Positions 1,924 to 7,621 of a stretch of DNA of 7,660 nt are shown here, one piece after another. The stretch's first letter is position 1; every line of letters begins with the position of its first letter. The notes below the pieces were generated by a model. The model saw only the letters and a list, made by a program, of their open reading frames with translations. It made no database searches and had not been told where the DNA came from. The DNA is from a virus (Duplodnaviria; Heunggongvirae; Uroviricota; Caudoviricetes), in the IMG/VR virus record IMGVR_UViG_2579778529_000005. One strand, given 5' to 3'. A program made the position numbers and the translations under genes.

Positions 1924-2157
1924 ATGTTAAAATCAACTCTTATTGCTAAATGCCTTTATCAAAATCGCATGGTAAGCAGCATTTCAATAGGCGAGTCTGC
2001 AGTTAAAAGTATTTTCGAAGAGTACTTCCCCGGGCATGATTTTAATAAATGGAATACCAAATTACCGCCAGCAGTTTCAACGCGTATTCTGAAAGCAACT
2101 GAAAGAGCAAGTACAATTCGCGTTAACTATTTCATTAAAGATTTGTGGGATCTTTGA
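1924..2157 (+). CDS. Hypothetical 77-aa protein encoded opposite to the dicB operon; no recognisable domain
   Basis: ATG at 1924 preceded by a perfect AGGAGG (1914..1919) at 4-nt spacing. AT-rich coding sequence follows a GC-rich structured region. The 3' end overlaps the 3' end of the 135-aa gene by 23 bp. No homolog recognised. Confidence 0.5.
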   Translation: MLKSTLIAKCLYQNRMVSSISIGESAVKSIFEEYFPGHDFNKWNTKLPPAVSTRILKATERASTIRVNYFIKDLWDL

Positions 2158-2542
2158 TATCCACAGAGCCTAAAGTATGTGCATATGGATGTGCTATTGT
2201 GCGCCCTCGCAGATTTGCATCATTTTCTAAATTCACTGAACGAAACAGGGCATCAACAAGGCTCTGTACAATGCAAAGGCAATCGAAGACTGTCGCTGTT
2301 TCTGTTTTGATTGATGAAAGAACATGGCCATTCACGCAAACAGAAATTACCCGTTCATTAACATCGCTTTCCTGCTTTTGATTATCAGAACCATATAGCC
2401 CAGAAAAAGCATTGCGCACATTACGAACCATATTATCGATGGTTTCTTTTTTGGTGTATGCCGGGTCAATTTTCACCAGACTATCACCGAGAGTCGTTGC
2501 AGCAATTGTCTGGATTTCTTTTGGTAAATCTTTAAATTCCAT
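2135..2542 (-). CDS. Hypothetical 135-aa soluble protein, extra gene in the dicB operon between ydfC and dicF; function unknown
   Basis: ATG at 2542 with GAGG RBS, starting 22 bp downstream of the ydfC stop on the same strand. Intact 135-codon frame ending TAA at 2135..2137. I do not recognise the protein (MEFKDLPKEIQTIAATTLGDSLVKIDPAYTKKETIDNMVRNVRNAFSGLYGSDNQ...). Confidence 0.65.
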   Translation of the reverse strand: MEFKDLPKEIQTIAATTLGDSLVKIDPAYTKKETIDNMVRNVRNAFSGLYGSDNQKQESDVNERVISVCVNGHVLSSIKTETATVFDCLCIVQSLVDALFRSVNLENDANLRGRTIAHPYAHTLGSVDIKDPTNL

Positions 2543-2564
2543 TATTAGCCTCGTTGGTTAGCTA

Positions 2565-2783
2565 TTAACGTGGGTATGTAATCATTCTGGCAATGCTTAA
2601 TGCCGCTGCTTTTTCCAGATTGGTGATATCCTGCTCCAGAGCGGACAGATTTTCAGCCTGCTTAGCCCTGGCTTCATTAGCCCATTTCAGATCCTGCGCT
2701 GCATTAATTTTCTGGCGCATCCACTCATAAAGTTCATCATCGGTATAGTCTGGCGCGATTATGACGGGTTCTCGTTTCTGCAT
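2565..2783 (-). CDS. ydfC: YdfC, 72-aa Qin-prophage protein of unknown function
   Basis: MQKREPVIIAPDYTDDELYEWMRQKINAAQDLKWANEARAKQAENLSALEQDITNLEKAAALSIARMITYPR matches my recollection of K-12 YdfC. GAGGAA RBS 6 nt upstream of ATG at 2783. Confidence 0.85.
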   Translation of the reverse strand: MQKREPVIIAPDYTDDELYEWMRQKINAAQDLKWANEARAKQAENLSALEQDITNLEKAAALSIARMITYPR

Positions 2784-2812
2784 ACTGATTCCTCGCGGTG
2801 CTGTTTCGCTTA

Positions 2813-2941
2813 TCAGCCGTTAGATTTTGCCGAGCTGGAAAGCGCCTGTTTAAACTCACTGAAGCTGAGAGCTTCTTCGCCTTCGGCAAGGTCTTCGAAG
2901 TATTCTTCGTAAGCCTTTTCCATGATTGTGTCGAAATCCAT
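2813..2941 (-). CDS. ydfB: YdfB, 42-aa Qin-prophage small protein
   Basis: Not in the ORF track (too short). Hand translation of the minus strand from ATG 2941 gives MDFDTIMEKAYEEYFEDLAEGEEALSFSEFKQALSSSAKSNG then TGA (plus 2813..2815). The ydfA stop sits 1 nt before this ATG (TGATATG on the minus strand). Confidence 0.85.
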   Translation of the reverse strand: MDFDTIMEKAYEEYFEDLAEGEEALSFSEFKQALSSSAKSNG

Positions 2942-2942
2942 A

Positions 2943-3098
2943 TCACTCACCTGAGTTTCTTTCCAGCCAGCGACGGGCACCATTTTCGGTTTTAAACGTT
3001 TTGCTTTTGGTATACGTCATTGCGGTGAACGTGCCGTCCTGGTTTGGAAACACGCCGTACACCAGAGATTCGTTGTTGCCAAGATCGATAGTATCCAT
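2943..3098 (-). CDS. ydfA: YdfA, 51-aa Qin-prophage small protein (first gene of the dicB operon)
   Basis: Internal ATG at 3098 of track ORF 2943..3176 gives MDTIDLGNNESLVYGVFPNQDGTFTAMTYTKSKTFKTENGARRWLERNSGE. GAGG RBS 5 nt upstream. The longer track ORF starts with TTG at 3176 and would run through the operator region. Confidence 0.8.
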   Translation of the reverse strand: MDTIDLGNNESLVYGVFPNQDGTFTAMTYTKSKTFKTENGARRWLERNSGE

Positions 3099-3264
3099 GC
3101 TGACCTCATTTCCCCTTAACGCTGGGGTAGCGGAACTGTTTGCTGAGAACACCGTGCGGTGTGTTGATGCAAACAAGGTTAGCCATGACTAACATATCGG
3201 TCAAGTGATATTGTATGCTATAGCTAACATAATTGATGTGGTAAAAGATAACTCATTGATGATG
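3099..3264 (-). promoter_or_regulatory. PdicB promoter/operator region between dicA and ydfA, with DicA-operator-like palindrome GTTAGCCATGACTAAC (3178..3193)
   Basis: Intergenic on the operon strand. Contains GTTAG-N5-ACTAAC at 3178..3193 and a TTAGCTATAGCATA-like motif on the minus strand near 3215..3228, both recurring in the dicA-dicC intergenic region. Confidence 0.55.
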
Positions 3265-3672
3265 TTATCTTTTATTTGTCCGCTGACGGGCTTTTAGTAA
3301 TTCTTCAAAGAGTTTATTGAAGTTTTTTACTCGAGCTCGCATTTCGGCGAGCTGGGTATCCTGTTCTGATTCTGGCAGTGCATTAAACAGCTCAAGGAGC
3401 TCTAGTTCTTTGGGGGATAAGGCAACTGGCTTCTCAACAGGTGGTGTTGGTTGCTTGTCTTCATCGCCAAATAGAATCCATGTTGGTGAGCATTGCAATA
3501 CTTTGCTGAGGGCAAAAAGGTTCTTCCCTGTAGGTTCACTATCACCCCGTTCCCATTGTGATACAGACACATGGGAGATTTTCAGGGCTTTAGCAAGAGA
3601 CCTTTGGGTGTGTTTGAGGTTTTTCCGACGATACCTGATGCGTTCGCCGATAGTTAAATTTTTTGTTTCCAT
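3265..3672 (-). CDS. dicA: DicA, 135-aa XRE-family HTH repressor (cI/c2-like immunity repressor of the dicB operon)
   Basis: METKNLTIGERIRYRRKNLKHTQRSLAKALKISHVSVSQWERGDSEPTGKNLFALSKVLQCSPTWILFGDED... has an N-terminal HTH (QRSLAKALKISHVSVSQWERG) and matches K-12 DicA as I recall it. Divergent from dicC. Confidence 0.92.
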   Translation of the reverse strand: METKNLTIGERIRYRRKNLKHTQRSLAKALKISHVSVSQWERGDSEPTGKNLFALSKVLQCSPTWILFGDEDKQPTPPVEKPVALSPKELELLELFNALPESEQDTQLAEMRARVKNFNKLFEELLKARQRTNKR

Positions 3673-3755
3673 AGTTAGCTAATGCTAAATCGTATTGACT
3701 ATGTTTTTGTTAACATCTATCTTGTTAGTTATGACTAACAATAAAGGTGTTTTAA
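3673..3755. promoter_or_regulatory. Divergent dicA/dicC promoter-operator region: dicC promoter (-35 TTGACT 3695..3700, 17-bp spacer, -10 TATCTT 3718..3723) and operator palindrome TTGTTAGTtatgACTAACAA (3722..3741)
   Basis: Perfect 8-bp inverted arms with a 4-bp spacer overlapping the -10/+1 of the dicC promoter. Additional TTAGCTAATGCTAA motif at 3675..3688 just upstream of the dicA start. Confidence 0.6.
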
Positions 3756-3986
3756 ATGCTTAAAACTGACGCTCTTTTGTATTTCGGTTCAAAAACAAAA
3801 CTTGCACAAGCAGCAGGTATTCGTTTGGCTTCGCTTTATAGCTGGAAAGGGGATTTAGTTCCCGAAGGTCGCGCGATGCGTCTACAGGAGGCATCTGGCG
3901 GGGAGCTTCAGTATGATCCCAAAGTTTATGATGAATATCGTAAGACGAAGCGGGCGGGGCGGTTGAACAATGAAAATCACTCCTGA
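3756..3986 (+). CDS. dicC: DicC, 76-aa Cro-like regulator
   Basis: MLKTDALLYFGSKTKLAQAAGIRLASLYSWKGDLVPEGRAMRLQEASGGELQYDPKVYDEYRKTKRAGRLNNENHS matches K-12 DicC as I recall it. AAGGTG RBS. Divergent from dicA. Confidence 0.9.
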   Translation: MLKTDALLYFGSKTKLAQAAGIRLASLYSWKGDLVPEGRAMRLQEASGGELQYDPKVYDEYRKTKRAGRLNNENHS

Positions 3987-4491
3987 ACAGGCTCGTGAGG
4001 CTCTGGATGCCTGGATATGTCGACCAGGAATGACACAGGAGCAGGCGACGATATTAATCACTGAAGCATTCTGGGCTTTGAAAGAGCGCCCGAACATCGA
4101 TGTTCAGCGTGTCACATATGAAGGTGGCGCGATTGATCAGCGAGCGCTTGGCGTTAATCGAGTGAAGATATTTGAACGCTGGAAGGCTATCGACACCAGG
4201 GATAAGCGTGAAAAGTTCACGGCGCTAGTGCCTGCAATTATGGAGGCTATCCGGATTAATGATTTCAGGTTGTATCGTGAAATTACTGACGGAAAAAGCA
4301 TCACGTGCATGATCGCCGGGTTAAACAAAGAATATGGCGATGTGGTGGAGTCCGGACTGCTTTTTGCTGATCCTGCCGTAGTGGATCGTGAAACTGACGA
4401 ACTTATAGAAAAAGCAATTGCTTTCAAACTTGCGTATCGACAGCAATACCAACAAAAAGCTGGATGGAATTATGAGCCTTCTTTTTGCTGA
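3970..4491 (+). CDS. Hypothetical 173-aa phage protein at the position of a cII/YdaT-type early regulator (immediately after the cro-like gene); function not established
   Basis: ATG at 3970 overlaps the dicC 3' end by 17 nt, suggesting translational coupling. Frame is open for 173 codons. No recognisable motif; the assignment is positional only. Confidence 0.6.
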   Translation: MKITPEQAREALDAWICRPGMTQEQATILITEAFWALKERPNIDVQRVTYEGGAIDQRALGVNRVKIFERWKAIDTRDKREKFTALVPAIMEAIRINDFRLYREITDGKSITCMIAGLNKEYGDVVESGLLFADPAVVDRETDELIEKAIAFKLAYRQQYQQKAGWNYEPSFC

Positions 4492-5437
4492 ACGCCCACT
4501 GGTTATAAACACGCAGCTGGCAATGAAAATTGGCTTAAACGAAGCCATTGTTTTGCAACAACTGCACTACTGGTTGAGAGATACCAACTCCGGCATGGAA
4601 TGTGATGGTGTTCGCTGGATTTATAACACAACGGAACAATGGCTGGAACAGTTCCCATTCTGGTCAGAGTCAACGTTAAAGCGCGCGTTTGCAAGTCTGA
4701 AAACGCTGGGGCTTTTGCGTTGTGAAAAGCTCAATAAATCAAAGCGCGATATGACCAATTTCTACACGATCAACTATGGGAGCGAGCTTTTAGATGGTGG
4801 CAAATTGAGCGAATCCATCGGTTCAAAATGCGCCGCTCCATCAGGTCAAAATGACACGATGGAAGAGGTCAAAATGAAACGCTCCATTGGTTCAAAACGA
4901 CCCAATGTCATCGGGTCAAAATGGCCTGATGATCTTACAGAGAATACAACAGAGATTACTACAGAGAATAAAAACACTTTTCGTCCGGAAGCTTCGCAAC
5001 CGGACCCGCAGACGACTGAACAGGATTTTTTAACCCGGAACTCCGACGCGGTTGTGTTTAGTGCGAAAAAACGCCAGTGGGGTAGCAGGGAGGATTTGGC
5101 GTGTGCGCAGTGGATCTGGGGGCGGATCGTGGGTCTCTACGAACAGGCAGCCAGTGATGATGGCGAGATCATGCGACCAAAAGAGCCTAACTGGACTGCC
5201 TGGGCCAATGACGTGCGCACAATGCGGATGCTGGATGGCAGAAGCCACAGACAAATTTGCGAAATGTTTGGTCGGGTTCAGCGAGATCCATTCTGGGTAA
5301 AAAACATCATGAGCCCGTCAAAGCTCCGCGAAAAATGGGACGAACTGGTCATCCGCCTGGGACGTTCACCTGTACAGCGTTGTGTTAATCATATTTCTGA
5401 ACCGGATACAGAAATTCCGCCTGGTTTCAGAGGATAA
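4472..5437 (+). CDS. Phage replication initiator (lambda O-like), 321 aa from ATG 4472, with origin iterons inside the coding sequence
   Basis: N-terminal region MSLLFAERPLVINTQLAMKIGLNEAIVLQQLHYWL... looks like the DNA-binding domain of O-type initiators. Central SIGSK/GSK repeats are encoded by five 23-bp-phased iterons followed by an AT-rich tract, the classic lambdoid ori-in-O layout. The track start at 4418 is a TTG; ATG 4472 is preferred. Confidence 0.75.
   Translation: MSLLFAERPLVINTQLAMKIGLNEAIVLQQLHYWLRDTNSGMECDGVRWIYNTTEQWLEQFPFWSESTLKRAFASLKTLGLLRCEKLNKSKRDMTNFYTINYGSELLDGGKLSESIGSKCAAPSGQNDTMEEVKMKRSIGSKRPNVIGSKWPDDLTENTTEITTENKNTFRPEASQPDPQTTEQDFLTRNSDAVVFSAKKRQWGSREDLACAQWIWGRIVGLYEQAASDDGEIMRPKEPNWTAWANDVRTMRMLDGRSHRQICEMFGRVQRDPFWVKNIMSPSKLREKWDELVIRLGRSPVQRCVNHISEPDTEIPPGFRG
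4814..4976 (+). repeat. Putative replication origin: five about 17-bp iterons (consensus TCCATCGGTCAAAATG) phased every 23-24 bp (starts 4814, 4837, 4860, 4883, 4907), then an AT-rich tract with three ACAGAGA(A/T)TA repeats (4937..4970)
   Basis: Direct repeats read from the sequence. The architecture matches lambda ori (iterons plus AT-rich DNA-unwinding element within O). Confidence 0.65.
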
Positions 5438-5477: not shown

Positions 5478-5900
5478 GTGGCAAAAGTTTTTACACAAGA
5501 AGAGCGGGAAAAAATTAAATGGCAGGTGGTGGAACTCGTGCGCCAGAGCGGCCGTGAGACGTTACGGCAACTGGAAGCTAAAACAGGTGCGACTAGATAT
5601 CTGATGAGCGTTCTTGCCAGAGAGCTGGTAGCCAGTGGCGATGTATACAACTCCGGCTACGGGTTATTCCCCTCTGAACAGGCGCGTAAGGACTGGCAAA
5701 ACGCCCGCAAAAAACTCTCGAGGGCAAAGGTGAAGAAACCTGCTGTGGTTGATCCGGACCTTATCTGGTCATCACCTGACGGAGAAATACGTCGCTACGA
5801 CAGTCGCCTAAACATAATCTGTCGCGAGTGCCGGAAGAGCGAAGTTATGCAGCGCATACTGGCTTTCTATCAGGGTAATTTTCAGGACGTGGCGCAGTGA
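5478..5900 (+). CDS. Hypothetical 140-aa phage protein (GTG start), translationally coupled to the downstream methyltransferase-like ORF
   Basis: GTG at 5478 preceded by AAGGGGGA RBS at about 5-nt spacing. Basic protein with a CRECRK motif. Its stop overlaps the next start (GTGA at 5897..5900). Confidence 0.6.
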   Translation: MAKVFTQEEREKIKWQVVELVRQSGRETLRQLEAKTGATRYLMSVLARELVASGDVYNSGYGLFPSEQARKDWQNARKKLSRAKVKKPAVVDPDLIWSSPDGEIRRYDSRLNIICRECRKSEVMQRILAFYQGNFQDVAQ

Positions 5901-6253
5901 GTGCACCGGCAACCATTCTTGATATGTGCTGTGGCAGCCGCATGTTCTGGTTCGATAAGTCTGACGAACGGGCGATATTCAGCGATATCAGAAAAGAAGG
6001 ATACACATTACGCAATGGGAGACGCTTGATTATCAGCCCTGACATTATCGCAGATTTTCGTGCATTATCATTTGCAGACGCATCTTTTTCGATGGTTGTA
6101 TTAGACCCTCCGCATCTTGAGAGTGTTGGTGATAACGCCTGGATGGGAAAGAAATATGGACGGCTGAATAAAGATGCCTGGCGTGATGATTCGCGACAGA
6201 GATTTAAAGAAGCCTTTCGGGTGTTGAGGCCGCACGGCGTTCTGATTTTTTAA
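5897..6253 (+). CDS. SAM-dependent methyltransferase-like protein, 118 aa, possibly C-terminally truncated (candidate pseudogene)
   Basis: Motif I-like LDMCCGS near the N-terminus and motif IV-like VVLDPPH about 60 residues later (the D/N-PP-Y/F/H signature of amino-methyltransferases), then RVLRPHGVLIF. The frame stops at TAA 6251..6253 but stays open for about 30 more codons (WNETQIPVSQILALTDRKPVICQRTGKKR) before the next stop. IS3 is inserted about 150 bp downstream. Confidence 0.5.
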   Translation: MSAPATILDMCCGSRMFWFDKSDERAIFSDIRKEGYTLRNGRRLIISPDIIADFRALSFADASFSMVVLDPPHLESVGDNAWMGKKYGRLNKDAWRDDSRQRFKEAFRVLRPHGVLIF

Positions 6254-6402: not shown

Positions 6403-6441
6403 TGATCCTACCCACGTAATATGGACACAGGCCTAAGCGAG
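6403..6441. repeat. IS3 terminal inverted repeat (right end, IRR)
   Basis: Imperfect inverted match to the terminal 39 bp at 7622..7660 (TGATCYTACCCA...TGGACAC...CTAAG). Confidence 0.85.
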
Positions 6442-7299
6442 GTTCTGGTTTTCAAATTGTTCCGGACTGAGGCCGCCACACCAACTGTGCCGCCGCCACC
6501 GATTGTAATCACATTCGATATAATTAAACACCGTTGCCCGCATTATTTCCCGGCTGATAAAGTGTTCTCCATGGATACATTCCACTTTCAGCGAATGAAA
6601 GAAGCTTTCCACGCAGGCATTATCGTAGCAGCAACCTTTTGCGCTCATACTTCCACGCAGATTATGCCGCTTCAGTTGCGCCTGATAATCTGCTGAACAG
6701 TACTGGCCTCCACGGTCCGTGTGAACGATAACGTTCCGGGGCCTCTTACGCCGCCACAGCGCCATCTGCAGGGCATCGCAGGCCAGTTGCGCCGTCATGC
6801 GTGGCGACATTGACCAGCCAATAACGGCACGTGACCACAGGTCAATGACCACTGCCAGATACAGCCAGCCTTCATCTGTACGTAAGTACGTGATGTCTCC
6901 TGCCCACTTCTGGTTCGGGCCACTGGCGTAAAAATCCTGCTCCAACAGATTTTCTGACACAGGCAGGCCGTGTGCGCGGTAGCTGACCGGGCTGAACTTC
7001 CGGGAGGCCTTTGCCCTCAGTCCCTGACGGCGCAGGCTTGCCGCCACGGTTTTTACGTTAAAGGGGTAACCCTGAGCACGCAGTTCATCCGTCAGGCGTG
7101 GGGCACCGTAACGCTGTTTTGACCGGGTAAAAGCCGCGAGGACAACGCTGTCGCAGTGTTGGCGGAACTGCTGACGCGTGCTTATCCTTGTCCGCCGCTG
7201 ACACCACGTATACCAGCCGCTGCGGGCCACCCGGAGCACGCGGCACATTGCTTTGATGCTGAACTCAGCCTGATGTTTTTCAATAAAGACATACTTCAT
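6433..7299 (-). CDS. insF: IS3 transposase OrfB (InsF), DDE integrase-type catalytic domain, 288 aa
   Basis: [36 protein letters not shown]... matches IS3 InsF as I recall it. Normally expressed as an OrfAB fusion by -1 frameshifting. Confidence 0.95.
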
Positions 7300-7595
7300 T
7301 TCAGGCGCTTCGCGAAGTATGTCGCGGCCTTTTGGAGGATAGCCAGCTCTTCATCCCGTTCTGCCAGCTGGCGTTTGAGACGTGCAATCTCGGTAGACAT
7401 CTCCAGTTCACGTTCAGAAGACGTCTGCTGATTTTGCTGTTTACTGCGCCAGTTGTAGAGCTGTGATTCATACAGGCTGAGTTCACGGGCTGCGGCAGTA
7501 ACACCGATGCGTTCAGCAAGCTTCAGGGCTTCACTGCGAAATTCAGGCGAATGCTGTTTACGGGGTTTTTTACTGGTTGATACTGTTTTTGTCAT
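7296..7595 (-). CDS. insE: IS3 transposase OrfA (InsE), HTH DNA-binding protein, 99 aa
   Basis: [54 protein letters not shown]... The track ORF carries a 3-codon N-terminal extension (MTHMTKTV); the 99-aa form is the known product. Confidence 0.9.
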
Positions 7596-7621
7596 GTGAG
7601 TCACCTCTGACTGAGAGTTTA

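What the first reader, a model, noticed from the sequence alone, without database searches (positions are those of the whole stretch)
3178..3740. A shared 16-bp operator motif, GTTAG-YYATG-ACTAAC, in both regulatory regions flanking dicA
GTTAGCCATGACTAAC (3178..3193, upstream of ydfA in the PdicB region) and GTTAGTTATGACTAAC (3724..3739, inside the perfect palindrome TTGTTAGTtatgACTAACAA that overlaps the dicC promoter -10) are 14/16 identical. Related TTAGCTA-type half-sites recur at 3675..3688 and near 3215..3228. This looks like one repressor (DicA) controlling both the dicB operon and the dicA/dicC switch, an O_L/O_R-like arrangement. The exact operator boundaries are read directly from the sequence.
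Basis: partly seen in the sequence, partly recalled or inferred. Interest (0 to 1): 0.45.

Follow-up and report, generated by a model that had tools for sequence, protein, structure and literature searches.

The report
Known DicA operators flanking dicA
The two near-identical 16-bp palindromes on either side of dicA are real, conserved repressor-binding sites of a Qin-type prophage switch, but this arrangement has been described since 1988 and one site is experimentally verified, so the finding is correct and ordinary.

Summary
GTTAGCCATGACTAAC (3178-3193) and GTTAGTTATGACTAAC (3724-3739) are there, 14/16 identical, and far beyond chance.

The window is a Qin-type lambdoid prophage immunity region: dicA 3265-3672(-), dicC 3756-3986(+), ydfA 2943-3098(-).

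- **The right-hand site** lies in the palindrome 3722-3741. It is base-for-base the published Oc operator, shown in vivo to need DicA and to be killed by one half-site substitution.
- **The left-hand site (Ob1)** lies in a candidate dicB-operon promoter, TTGACC-17-TAACCT. No footprint of it was found in the literature I could read.

My comparisons support both sites.

- In 59 distinct DicA-type loci, including Citrobacter and Serratia, the half-sites GTTAG/CTAAC and the central AT are nearly invariant.
- Three other 135-aa repressor alleles in the same gene context each carry their own palindromes. Two have changed half-sites, on both sides of the repressor gene.

The O_L/O_R-like reading is therefore supported, but it is the 1988 model of Bejar and colleagues. 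DicC ChIP-seq has also reported binding on either side of dicA.

Caveat: the weaker sites Oa and Om reportedly do not bind DicA in vivo.

By-product: operator positions 6, 7, 10 and 11 toggle by recurrent transitions (GTTAG-YYATRR-CTAAC), about ten times more often than other columns.

The parts
3722..3741 (.). Oc operator: perfect 20-bp palindrome TTGTTAGTTATGACTAACAA (16-bp core at 3724-3739). It lies just downstream of the dicC -10 and covers the start site.
   Evidence: It is the exact reverse complement of the published Oc sequence, whose DicA dependence and loss on a half-site A->C change were shown in vivo (PMC3441716). The DicA site is annotated at -8..+12 of dicCp. Half-sites are invariant in 59 distinct loci.
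3178..3193 (.). Ob1: promoter-proximal operator of the dicB-operon promoter, GTTAGCCATGACTAAC. It occupies the spacer and the -10 of the candidate dicBp.
   Evidence: Its position and half-sites are conserved in all DicA-type loci, including Citrobacter and Serratia. 57 of the 59 loci have ATTAG instead of GTTAG on the + strand. The equivalent site differs between repressor alleles and matches the PR-side site within each. Binding is inferred, not shown.
3213..3228 (.). Ob2: second, degenerate operator 35 bp from Ob1, GTATGCTATAGCTAAC. It lies upstream of the dicBp -35.
   Evidence: 2 mismatches. It shows the same conservation pattern: half-site, central AT, and variable positions 6, 7, 10, 11. 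It is a better match, GTTAG-N6-CAAAC on the dicA-sense strand, in the loci with 93%-identical DicA and in Citrobacter.
3674..3689 (.). Oa-like site GTTAGCTAATGCTAAA, abutting the dicA start codon. Its identification with Bejar's 'Oa' is my inference from position.
   Evidence: 1 mismatch. It is almost invariant, centre included, in 59 loci. Oa was reported not to bind DicA in vivo. It is only partly changed in the other repressor alleles.
3699..3714 (.). Om-like degenerate site CTATGTTTTTGTTAAC, midway between Oc and Oa (25 bp centre-to-centre from each), inside the dicCp -35/spacer. The identification is inferred.
   Evidence: repeat D3 against Ob2. The register is shared with a better middle site in allele 3, CTTAGGTTTCTCTACG. 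Om was reported not to bind DicA.
3695..3723 (+). dicC promoter: -35 TTGACT (3695-3700), 17-bp spacer, -10 TATCTT (3718-3723). The inferred start is about 3730.
   Evidence: The hexamers are conserved. The position is consistent with the DicA site annotated at -8..+12.
3176..3204 (-). Candidate dicB-operon promoter (dicBp): -35 TTGACC (3204-3199), 17-bp spacer, -10 TAACCT (3181-3176; TAATCT in most relatives).
   Evidence: Relaxed scan, 8 of 12 matches. The -35 is conserved in 57-59 of 59 loci. By my reading of the sequences, the same TTGxCx-17-TAAxxT layout is present in the other alleles. No start-site data were available to me.
3265..3672 (-). dicA: 135-aa repressor with an N-terminal P22 C2-like HTH and a C-terminal helical region. 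It has no S24 peptidase domain.
3756..3986 (+). dicC: 76-aa Cro-like protein (Pfam P22_Cro).
2943..3098 (-). ydfA (DUF1391), the first gene of the dicB operon transcribed from dicBp.
   Evidence: The operon structure is described in PMC10448788.

Best explanation
The two 16-mers are operators of a lambdoid-type immunity switch carried by a Qin-like prophage.

**Binding.** A DicA dimer (N-terminal P22 C2-type helix-turn-helix) reads the two half-sites GTTAG and CTAAC. Their centres are 11 bp apart, about one helical turn. The six central base pairs follow the pattern YYATRR.

**Right-hand site (Oc, 3722-3741).** It sits from about -8 to +12 of the dicC promoter. Bound DicA blocks dicC transcription and, according to published work, activates dicA.

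**Left-hand site (Ob1, 3178-3193).** It lies in the spacer and -10 of the dicB-operon promoter, downstream of dicA and in the same orientation. This is the position lambda PL/OL holds relative to cI. Bound DicA there occludes RNA polymerase and keeps ydfABC-dicF-dicB silent.

**Other sites.** A weaker second site (Ob2, 3213-3228) lies upstream of the -35. The dicA-dicC region also carries two weaker sites (Om, Oa) at 25-bp intervals. The Cro-like DicC very probably uses the same operators.

**What is shown and what is inferred.**
- Shown (literature): DicA-dependent action at Oc, and trans repression of dicBp by DicA.
- Shown here: conservation of the sites, and the way they differ between repressor alleles.
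- Inferred: physical DicA binding at Ob1 and Ob2, the dicBp hexamers, and indirect read-out of the operator centre.
For: - **Presence and non-randomness:**
- **Locus identity:**
- **Protein families:** DicA is HTH_3 (E 1e-16) and matches P22 C2 (E 8e-20). DicC is P22_Cro.
- **Published evidence for Oc:** Oc is identical to 3722-3741. Repression through it depends on DicA in vivo, and one half-site substitution abolishes it. That substitution corresponds to window position 3726, a column invariant in 59 of 59 loci. Crude-extract EMSA also shows DicA binding to this region. Plasmid copies of the site are selected against, which the authors attribute to titration of DicA.
- **Published evidence for dicBp:** DicA represses it in trans; deleting dicA raises expression 22-fold. 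Operator triplets in both regions are attributed to Bejar 1988. DicC ChIP-seq infers one site on either side of dicA.
- **Conservation:** in 59 distinct loci the mean half-site column entropy is 0.01-0.14, against 0.36 for other intergenic columns. The central AT is invariant. The motif persists in Citrobacter (73% DicA identity) and Serratia (64%), which keep the same recognition helix SHVSVSQWER.
- **Differences between alleles:** three other 135-aa repressor alleles sit in the same ydfA...ydaT context, and each has its own palindromes on both sides of the repressor gene. One shows GTTAG-AAAAGT-CTAAC on the PR side and GTTAG-ATTGAT-CTAAC on the PL side. One shows CTTAG-N6-CTAAG on both sides. 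One shows TGAGAAAACTCAA on both sides (mismatch matrix).
- **Promoter geometry:**
Against: - No footprint or EMSA of DicA on the 3178-3193 site was found in the literature I could read. PMC7567609 states that the DicA site at dicB is low-evidence and its location unknown.
- Oa and Om reportedly do not bind DicA in vivo, so a full three-operator analogy with lambda is not established.
- dicA and dicC change together between alleles, so comparative data cannot tell whether DicA, DicC or both read Ob1.
- The dicBp -10 is weak (3 of 6 matches), and I had no start-site data.
- The 20-mer cross-allele mismatch test is only moderately discriminating. Allele 1 ties with allele 2, which shares its half-sites. 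For allele 3, 114 of 2000 shuffles reach the observed score.
Confidence: 0.87

Rival explanations
1. The palindromes, or at least Ob1, are read mainly by the Cro-like DicC rather than by DicA. DicA would then repress dicBp by another route, for example read-through control or a different site.
For: DicC ChIP-seq gives its strongest signal at this locus, with one inferred site on either side of dicA. dicC changes together with dicA in every allele examined, so the comparative data fit DicC equally well. The DicA site at dicB is described as of unknown location.
Against: Oc and Ob1 are 14/16 identical, and Oc action depends on DicA in vivo. DicA represses an out-of-locus dicBp fusion in trans, and deleting dicC has no effect on it. 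In lambdoid switches both proteins share operators, so this is more a complement than a rival.
Confidence: 0.06
2. The left-hand copy is not an operator. Its similarity to Oc would be a by-product of promoter sequence (CTAAC/TAACCT as the -10) or of an old duplication with no binding function.
For: The right half of Ob1 overlaps the candidate -10, and in most relatives it is CTAAT rather than CTAAC, as if it were constrained by the promoter.
Against: Both half-sites and the central AT are conserved well above the intergenic background, out to a Serratia locus with 64% DicA identity. The site shows the same peculiar YYATRR variation as Oc. In other repressor alleles the site changes to match that allele's PR-side palindrome. 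A match this good is not expected by chance.
Confidence: 0.03
3. The sites are targets of host factors (YjdC, or H-NS/Cnu) that control the dic locus, rather than of the prophage repressor.
For: YjdC was reported by ChIP-qPCR to bind the dic locus and to repress dic genes when DicA is absent. The Cnu-H-NS complex antagonises DicA at Oc, and an unidentified protein also shifts the dicA promoter fragment.
Against: The palindromes differ according to the prophage repressor allele within one host species. A host factor would not explain that. Repression through Oc requires dicA.
Confidence: 0.03

Closest known systems
Qin prophage dicA-dicC-dicB immunity region of E. coli K-12 (Bejar, Bouche & Bouche 1988; Yun et al. 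2012; Ragunathan et al. 2023)
   Same: This is the same locus. The region shared with K-12 is 99.4% identical. Oc is identical base for base. The gene order dicC<>dicA>ydfA... is the same. DicA represses dicCp and dicBp, and operators are described in both regions.
   Different: In this window Ob1 has a perfect GTTAG half-site, where K-12 and 57 of 59 relatives have ATTAG on the + strand. The prophage here retains ydaT/cII-like, replication and methyltransferase genes, where K-12 has ydfX. It also has an extra 135-aa ORF between ydfC and dicF.
Phage lambda OR/OL with CI and Cro
   Same: - The repressor and Cro genes are divergent.
- Operators lie at about 25-bp intervals in the intergenic region, overlapping the promoters.
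- A second operator cluster sits at a leftward early promoter downstream of the repressor gene, in the same orientation.
- The repressor autoactivates its own gene.
- The switch is bistable.
   Different: - DicA is 135 aa and lacks the RecA-dependent self-cleavage domain. It is relieved by the antirepressor Rem instead.
- Only one site per region is a strong match, and Om and Oa reportedly do not bind DicA.
- The PL-like sites are 35 bp apart.
- The distance between the two regions is only 546 bp, against about 2.4 kb in lambda (my own knowledge).
- Cooperativity and looping are untested.
Phage P22 C2 repressor and its 18-bp operators (PDB 1adr, 2r1j, 3jxb)
   Same: It is the closest solved homologue of the DicA DNA-binding domain (E 8e-20; recognition helix VSQWER shared). 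P22 operators have nearly identical contacted outer bases, and the repressor discriminates between them through non-contacted central bases. G/C pairs in the centre weaken binding (PMC4267663). That matches the pattern seen here of invariant half-sites and a variable centre.
   Different: The half-site sequence differs, and the G...C of the two half-sites are separated by 6 bp here against 4 bp in P22 (the P22 consensus is from my own knowledge). The DicA C-terminal region is short and helical rather than an S24 peptidase-like domain.
RacR/YdaS/YdaT (Rac prophage) and PaaR2 (CP-933P) immunity-like modules
   Same: They have the same module layout: a CI-like repressor, a divergent Cro-like gene, then a ydaT-family gene.
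   Different: The repressor alleles and operator sequences are different. I did not analyse them here.

Membership tests
Lambdoid prophage immunity region (CI/Cro-type switch with OR- and OL-like operators) | Divergently transcribed CI-like HTH repressor gene and Cro-like gene | tested here: met
   dicA 3265-3672(-) is HTH_3 / Phage_CI_repr and matches P22 C2 at E 8e-20. dicC 3756-3986(+) is P22_Cro at E 1.7e-11.
Lambdoid prophage immunity region (CI/Cro-type switch with OR- and OL-like operators) | Palindromic operators in the intergenic region that overlap the promoters | tested here: met
   Oc (3722-3741) abuts the dicCp -10 and covers the start site. Om-like and Oa-like sites lie at 25-bp intervals. 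Only Oc is a strong match.
Lambdoid prophage immunity region (CI/Cro-type switch with OR- and OL-like operators) | A second cluster of the same operators at an early promoter on the other side of the repressor gene (OL/PL equivalent) | tested here: met
   Ob1 (3178-3193) and Ob2 (3213-3228) lie around the candidate dicBp, TTGACC-17-TAACCT. They are conserved in 59 loci.
Lambdoid prophage immunity region (CI/Cro-type switch with OR- and OL-like operators) | Operator sequence tracks the repressor allele (immunity specificity) | tested here: met
   Four repressor alleles each have allele-specific palindromes on both sides of the repressor gene. Alleles 3 and 4 have changed half-sites. Allele 2 keeps GTTAG/CTAAC and differs only in the centre.
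Lambdoid prophage immunity region (CI/Cro-type switch with OR- and OL-like operators) | Physical binding of the repressor to the operators | not testable with these tools
   The literature covers Oc only: an in vivo assay and a crude-extract EMSA. The location of any DicA site at dicB is reported as unknown.
Lambdoid prophage immunity region (CI/Cro-type switch with OR- and OL-like operators) | RecA-stimulated self-cleaving C-terminal (S24 peptidase) domain in the repressor. Typical of lambda, P22 and 434, but not universal. | tested here: not met
   DicA has no Peptidase_S24 hit and is 135 aa. The literature says it lacks the Ala-Gly cleavage site and is relieved by the antirepressor Rem. It therefore belongs to the antirepressor-controlled subclass, like the Gifsy repressors.
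DicA regulon operator (the DicA site annotated at dicCp) | Sequence identity with the experimentally defined Oc 20-mer TTGTTAGTCATAACTAACAA | tested here: met
   The reverse complement of window 3722-3741 is identical to it.

The most novel reading that the evidence does not exclude
The four operator positions that flank the invariant central AT (positions 6, 7, 10, 11 of Oc, Ob1 and Ob2) are not merely unconstrained. They may be a tuning dial under recurrent selection. They flip between C and T (G and A on the other strand) again and again in otherwise near-identical prophages. Each flip adds or removes G:C pairs in a centre that is probably not contacted by the protein. By analogy with P22 repressor, this would change DicA and/or DicC affinity. 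It could reset the threshold of the toxic dicB switch, or the titration of a repressor present at about 20-25 copies per cell when several same-immunity prophages share a host.
Probability: 0.3. Interest if true: 0.45.

Novelty: already known. Interest (0 to 1): 0.15.

Why it matters
[quoted passage not shown] Extra copies of the operator are harmful, apparently because they titrate DicA. As a discovery, though, this adds little.

- The O_R/O_L-like layout and the Oc site are already published.
- What my analysis adds is modest. It gives strong comparative support for the exact position of the dicBp operators, whose location one paper calls unknown.
- It also shows a clear half-site/centre grammar, GTTAG-YYATRR-CTAAC, with unusually frequent transitions at four central positions. 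That could be used to study natural tuning of operator strength.

Tried and rejected
- **Primary papers not held.** Bejar 1986 is not held in the library. I did not try to fetch Bejar 1988; what it says about the operators reached me only through papers that cite it. I therefore could not check which dicBp sequences they named.
- **Promoter scans.** The standard scan found no promoter with 9 or more of 12 matches on the minus strand for dicBp or dicA. A relaxed scan gave TTGACC-17-TAACCT for dicBp and nothing convincing for dicA, which agrees with Yun et al..
- **Distant DicA relatives.** L006 (53% identity) and L007 (32%) carry no GTTAG-N6-CTAAC site. They are too far diverged to be informative.
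- **Causes of the central hypervariability that I rejected.**
  - One-way 5-methylcytosine deamination: changes run both ways in about equal numbers, and CCATGG is not a Dcm site.
  - Quasi-palindrome correction by template switching: perfect palindromes are not enriched among the haplotypes.
- **Structure prediction.**
  - A single-sequence model was poor: mean pLDDT 60.8, with the N-terminal domain not folded. It suggests only a C-terminal helical hairpin at residues 87-134. I made no fold search on it.
- **20-mer cross-allele mismatch matrix.** It is only moderately discriminating, because flanking bases add noise and alleles 1 and 2 share half-sites. The allele differences are clearer from the sequences themselves.
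- **Operator copies elsewhere in the window.** No further copy occurs near dicF or dicB. The only other hits, each with 2 mismatches, are at 5950 and 7596 and are at chance level.
Full report

Yes. GTTAGCCATGACTAAC is at 3178-3193 and GTTAGTTATGACTAAC at 3724-3739. They differ only at positions 6 and 7, so they are 14/16 identical.

- With up to three mismatches allowed, these are the only two sites in the 7660-bp window. The chance expectation is 0.12 hits, and none of 200 dinucleotide shuffles reached the observed count.
- The right-hand copy sits in a perfect 20-bp palindrome, TTGTTAGTtatgACTAACAA, at 3722-3741.
- The weaker 'related' sites are also there, in the same GTTAG-N6-CTAAC register: 3674-3689 with one mismatch and 3213-3228 with two.
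- At that looseness the window-wide count (6 against 2.17 expected; 2 of 200 shuffles reach it) is not compelling by itself. The case for the weak sites rests on their location and conservation.

**2. What is the locus?**

The window is a Qin-type lambdoid prophage immunity region of E. coli.

- The stretch 2545-4500 is 99.7% identical to an annotated E. coli chromosome, and the part shared with K-12 is 99.4% identical.
- The annotation gives ydfC, ydfB, ydfA and dicA on the minus strand, then dicC, a ydaT-family gene, replication genes and a methyltransferase on the plus strand.
- The same region, 99.4% identical, occurs in a 48.7-kb record deposited as the complete genome of Escherichia phage PhiR42_1, where the genes are labelled cI, Cro and cII.
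- DicA (3265-3672, minus strand, 135 aa) is an HTH_3 protein. Residues 7-71 align with the P22 C2 repressor DNA-binding domain at E 8e-20. It has no peptidase S24 domain.
- DicC (3756-3986) is a P22_Cro-family protein.
- DicF RNA is at 1538-1589 on the minus strand.

**3. What is already published?**

- **Oc.** Yun et al. 2012 (PMC3441716) give Oc as 5'-TTGTTAGTCATAACTAACAA. This is exactly the reverse complement of window 3722-3741.
  - The site could not be cloned on high-copy plasmids unless it carried mutations.
  - It confers DicA-dependent repression on a heterologous promoter in vivo.
  - It loses that function with a single A->C change in the CTAAC half-site.
  - Two other sequence-predicted sites, Om and Oa, did not bind DicA in the same assay (data not shown in that paper).
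  - Only a crude-extract EMSA was possible, because DicA was insoluble.
- **Position of the DicA site.** A 2026 Reg-Seq preprint places the annotated DicA site at -8 to +12 of dicCp and again sees selection against intact sites on plasmids.
- **dicBp.** Ragunathan et al. 2023 (PMC10448788) state, citing Bejar et al. 1988 and Yun et al. 2012, that both the dicA-dicC and the dicA-dicBp intergenic regions contain three operator sequences like those of lambda PR and PL. [quoted passage not shown] - **The remaining gap.** The 2020 Reg-Seq paper says that the DicA site at dicB is low-evidence and its location unknown.

Its right-hand site is experimentally established. Its left-hand site has not, in what I could read, been footprinted.

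**4. Independent test 1: conservation**

I fetched 86 loci encoding DicA relatives from genome and viral-contig collections. Together with the window, the dicC-to-ydfA interval gave 59 distinct sequences, which I aligned.

- Every locus with a DicA of at least 64% identity carries the motif at the same positions. This includes Citrobacter (73%) and Serratia (64%), both of which keep the recognition helix SHVSVSQWER.
- The column statistics are sharp. Mean entropy of the ten half-site columns is 0.012 for Oc, 0.034 for Ob1 and 0.137 for Ob2. Other intergenic columns average 0.362 and dicA third codon positions 0.322.
- The central AT is invariant in all three sites.
- The base that Yun et al. 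mutated corresponds to window position 3726, which is invariant in 59 of 59 loci.
- Ob2, degenerate in this window and in K-12, is a one-mismatch site (GTTAG-N6-CAAAC on the dicA-sense strand) in the loci with 93%-identical DicA and in Citrobacter.
- The window's own Ob1 is unusual in having a perfect GTTAG. 57 of the 59 relatives, including K-12, have ATTAG there.

**5. Independent test 2: do the sites track the repressor allele?**

E. coli genomes carry other 135-aa repressor alleles, 54-62% identical to DicA, in the same ydfA...ydaT context. Each allele has its own palindromes, and they match on both sides of the repressor gene.

| Allele | Loci | PR side | PL side |
|---|---|---|---|
| 2 | L088, L090 | GTTAG-AAAAGT-CTAAC | GTTAG-ATTGAT-CTAAC and TTTAG-AATAAC-CTAAC |
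| 3 | L091 | CTTAG-GAAAAT-CTAAG | TTTAG-AATAGC-CTAAG and TGTAG-AAAAAC-CTAAG |
| 4 | L089, L092, phage mEp460_ev081 | ATTGAG-AAAA-CTCAAT | GATGAG-AAAA-CTCAAG and TAATGAG-AAAA-CTAAA |

- Allele 4 has a different recognition helix, GSSISLWES.
- Reading the sequences, the layout looks the same in all alleles. One site lies just downstream of the PR-like -10. One lies in the spacer and -10 of a PL-like promoter (TTGxCx-17-TAAxxT). One lies upstream of that promoter's -35.
- This is the behaviour expected of immunity-specific operators.
- Limits of this test:
  - dicC changes together with dicA in these alleles, so the test cannot separate the two proteins.
  - Allele 2 keeps the same GTTAG/CTAAC half-sites as DicA and differs only in the operator centre.
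  - A 20-mer mismatch matrix gives the right diagonal, but with only moderate discrimination.

**6. Mechanism**

*Half-sites.* Their centres are 11 bp apart, about one helical turn. This suits a helix-turn-helix dimer binding one face of the DNA.

*Oc.*
- It follows the dicC -10 directly (TTGACT 3695-3700, 17-bp spacer, TATCTT 3718-3723) and covers the start site.
- Only 2 bp of the palindrome overlap the -10 hexamer.
- DicA bound there blocks dicC transcription and, according to Yun et al., activates the weak dicA promoter.

*Ob1.*
- On the minus strand it lies between a conserved -35, TTGACC (3204-3199), and a weak -10, TAACCT (3181-3176), which it overlaps. Ob2 ends 9 bp upstream of the -35.
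- A repressor bound there would occlude RNA polymerase at the dicB-operon promoter.
- dicBp lies downstream of dicA in the same orientation, as lambda PL lies relative to cI. 'O_L/O_R-like' is therefore an apt description.

*Differences from lambda.*
- The repressor is short, has no self-cleavage domain and is controlled by an antirepressor.
- Only one strong site is present per region.
- The two regions are 546 bp apart.

*Not shown.* Cooperativity and looping are untested. Physical binding of DicA to Ob1 and Ob2, and the dicBp hexamers, are inferences.

**7. A by-product worth recording**

In Oc, Ob1 and Ob2 the four positions flanking the central AT (positions 6, 7, 10, 11) are the opposite of conserved.

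- Their mean entropy is 0.65-0.82, and every change is a transition. The grammar is GTTAG-YYATRR-CTAAC.
- On a neighbour-joining tree built from the other columns, these 12 positions need 2-10 changes each, mean 5.6. Other columns need 0.56 on average, dicA third codon positions 0.37, and other intergenic columns 0.88.
- Changes run in both directions about equally, so one-way cytosine deamination does not explain them.
- Perfect palindromes are not favoured among the haplotypes, so quasi-palindrome correction does not explain them either.
- The Oa-like site lacks this behaviour and is nearly invariant throughout.

The closest solved homologue offers a precedent. P22 repressor distinguishes its natural operators through non-contacted central bases, and G:C pairs in the centre weaken binding (PMC4267663). 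By analogy, these C/T toggles could tune operator strength. That is an inference. Recombination among prophages could inflate the homoplasy counts, although it should affect neighbouring columns as well.

**8. Verdict**

- The weak sites Oa and Om may not be DicA sites.
- DicC very probably shares the operators.
- Binding at Ob1 is inferred, not shown.

The finding is already known in substance, so interest is low. My analysis adds comparative support for the exact dicBp operator positions, the half-site/centre grammar, and the transition hot spots in the operator centres.

Noticed in passing
window 3183, 3184, 3187, 3188; 3218, 3219, 3222, 3223; 3729, 3730, 3733, 3734: The four positions flanking the invariant central AT in each of Ob1, Ob2 and Oc change by recurrent transitions only, in both directions. 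They need a mean of 5.6 changes per column on a tree, against 0.56 for other columns and 0.37 for dicA third codon positions. This may reflect natural tuning of operator strength through non-contacted bases.
   Followed up: partly
window 3178 (+ strand G): This window's Ob1 has a perfect GTTAG half-site. 57 of the 59 distinct relatives, including K-12, have ATTAG. The same base is also position 4 of the candidate dicBp -10 (TAACCT here, TAATCT elsewhere).
   Followed up: partly
window 3673-3692: dicA has no recognisable Shine-Dalgarno sequence. The nearly invariant Oa-like palindrome TTAGC-TAAT-GCTAA ends 2 nt before the ATG. No convincing dicA promoter was found, in agreement with Yun et al.. 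A short-leader or leaderless dicA mRNA, as for lambda cI, is possible but untested.
   Followed up: no
window 3242-3274: A perfect 11-bp A/T-rich inverted repeat (TAAAAGATAAC ... GTTATCTTTTA, 11-nt loop) spans the dicA stop codon, between dicA and Ob2. It may be a weak dicA terminator. Its function is unknown.
   Followed up: no
window 2135-2542 (-): A 135-aa ORF with no Pfam match lies between ydfC and dicF. It is absent from the closest match (L001) and from K-12. O157-type prophages annotate a 135-aa hypothetical protein at the corresponding position next to ydfC; I did not compare the sequences.
   Followed up: no
window 6433-7604 (-): Two overlapping ORFs (102 aa at 7296-7604 and 288 aa at 6433-7299) look like the orfA/orfB pair of an insertion sequence (my assignment from the translations, possibly IS3 family). 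They lie just beyond the methyltransferase-like ORF (5897-6253), so the prophage is probably disrupted there. Not analysed further.
   Followed up: no
L088/L090, L091, L089/L092/L094 (repressor alleles 2-4): At least four 135-aa DicA-family immunity alleles share the same flanks (ydfA and ydaT). Alleles 1 and 2 use the same half-sites GTTAG/CTAAC but have different operator centres (YYATRR against A/T-rich). This raises the question of whether they are truly hetero-immune.
   Followed up: partly
window 3970-4491 (+): A 173-aa YdaT-family protein (annotated cII in phage PhiR42_1) starts 17 nt before the end of dicC. K-12 has only the remnant ydfX at this position.
   Followed up: no
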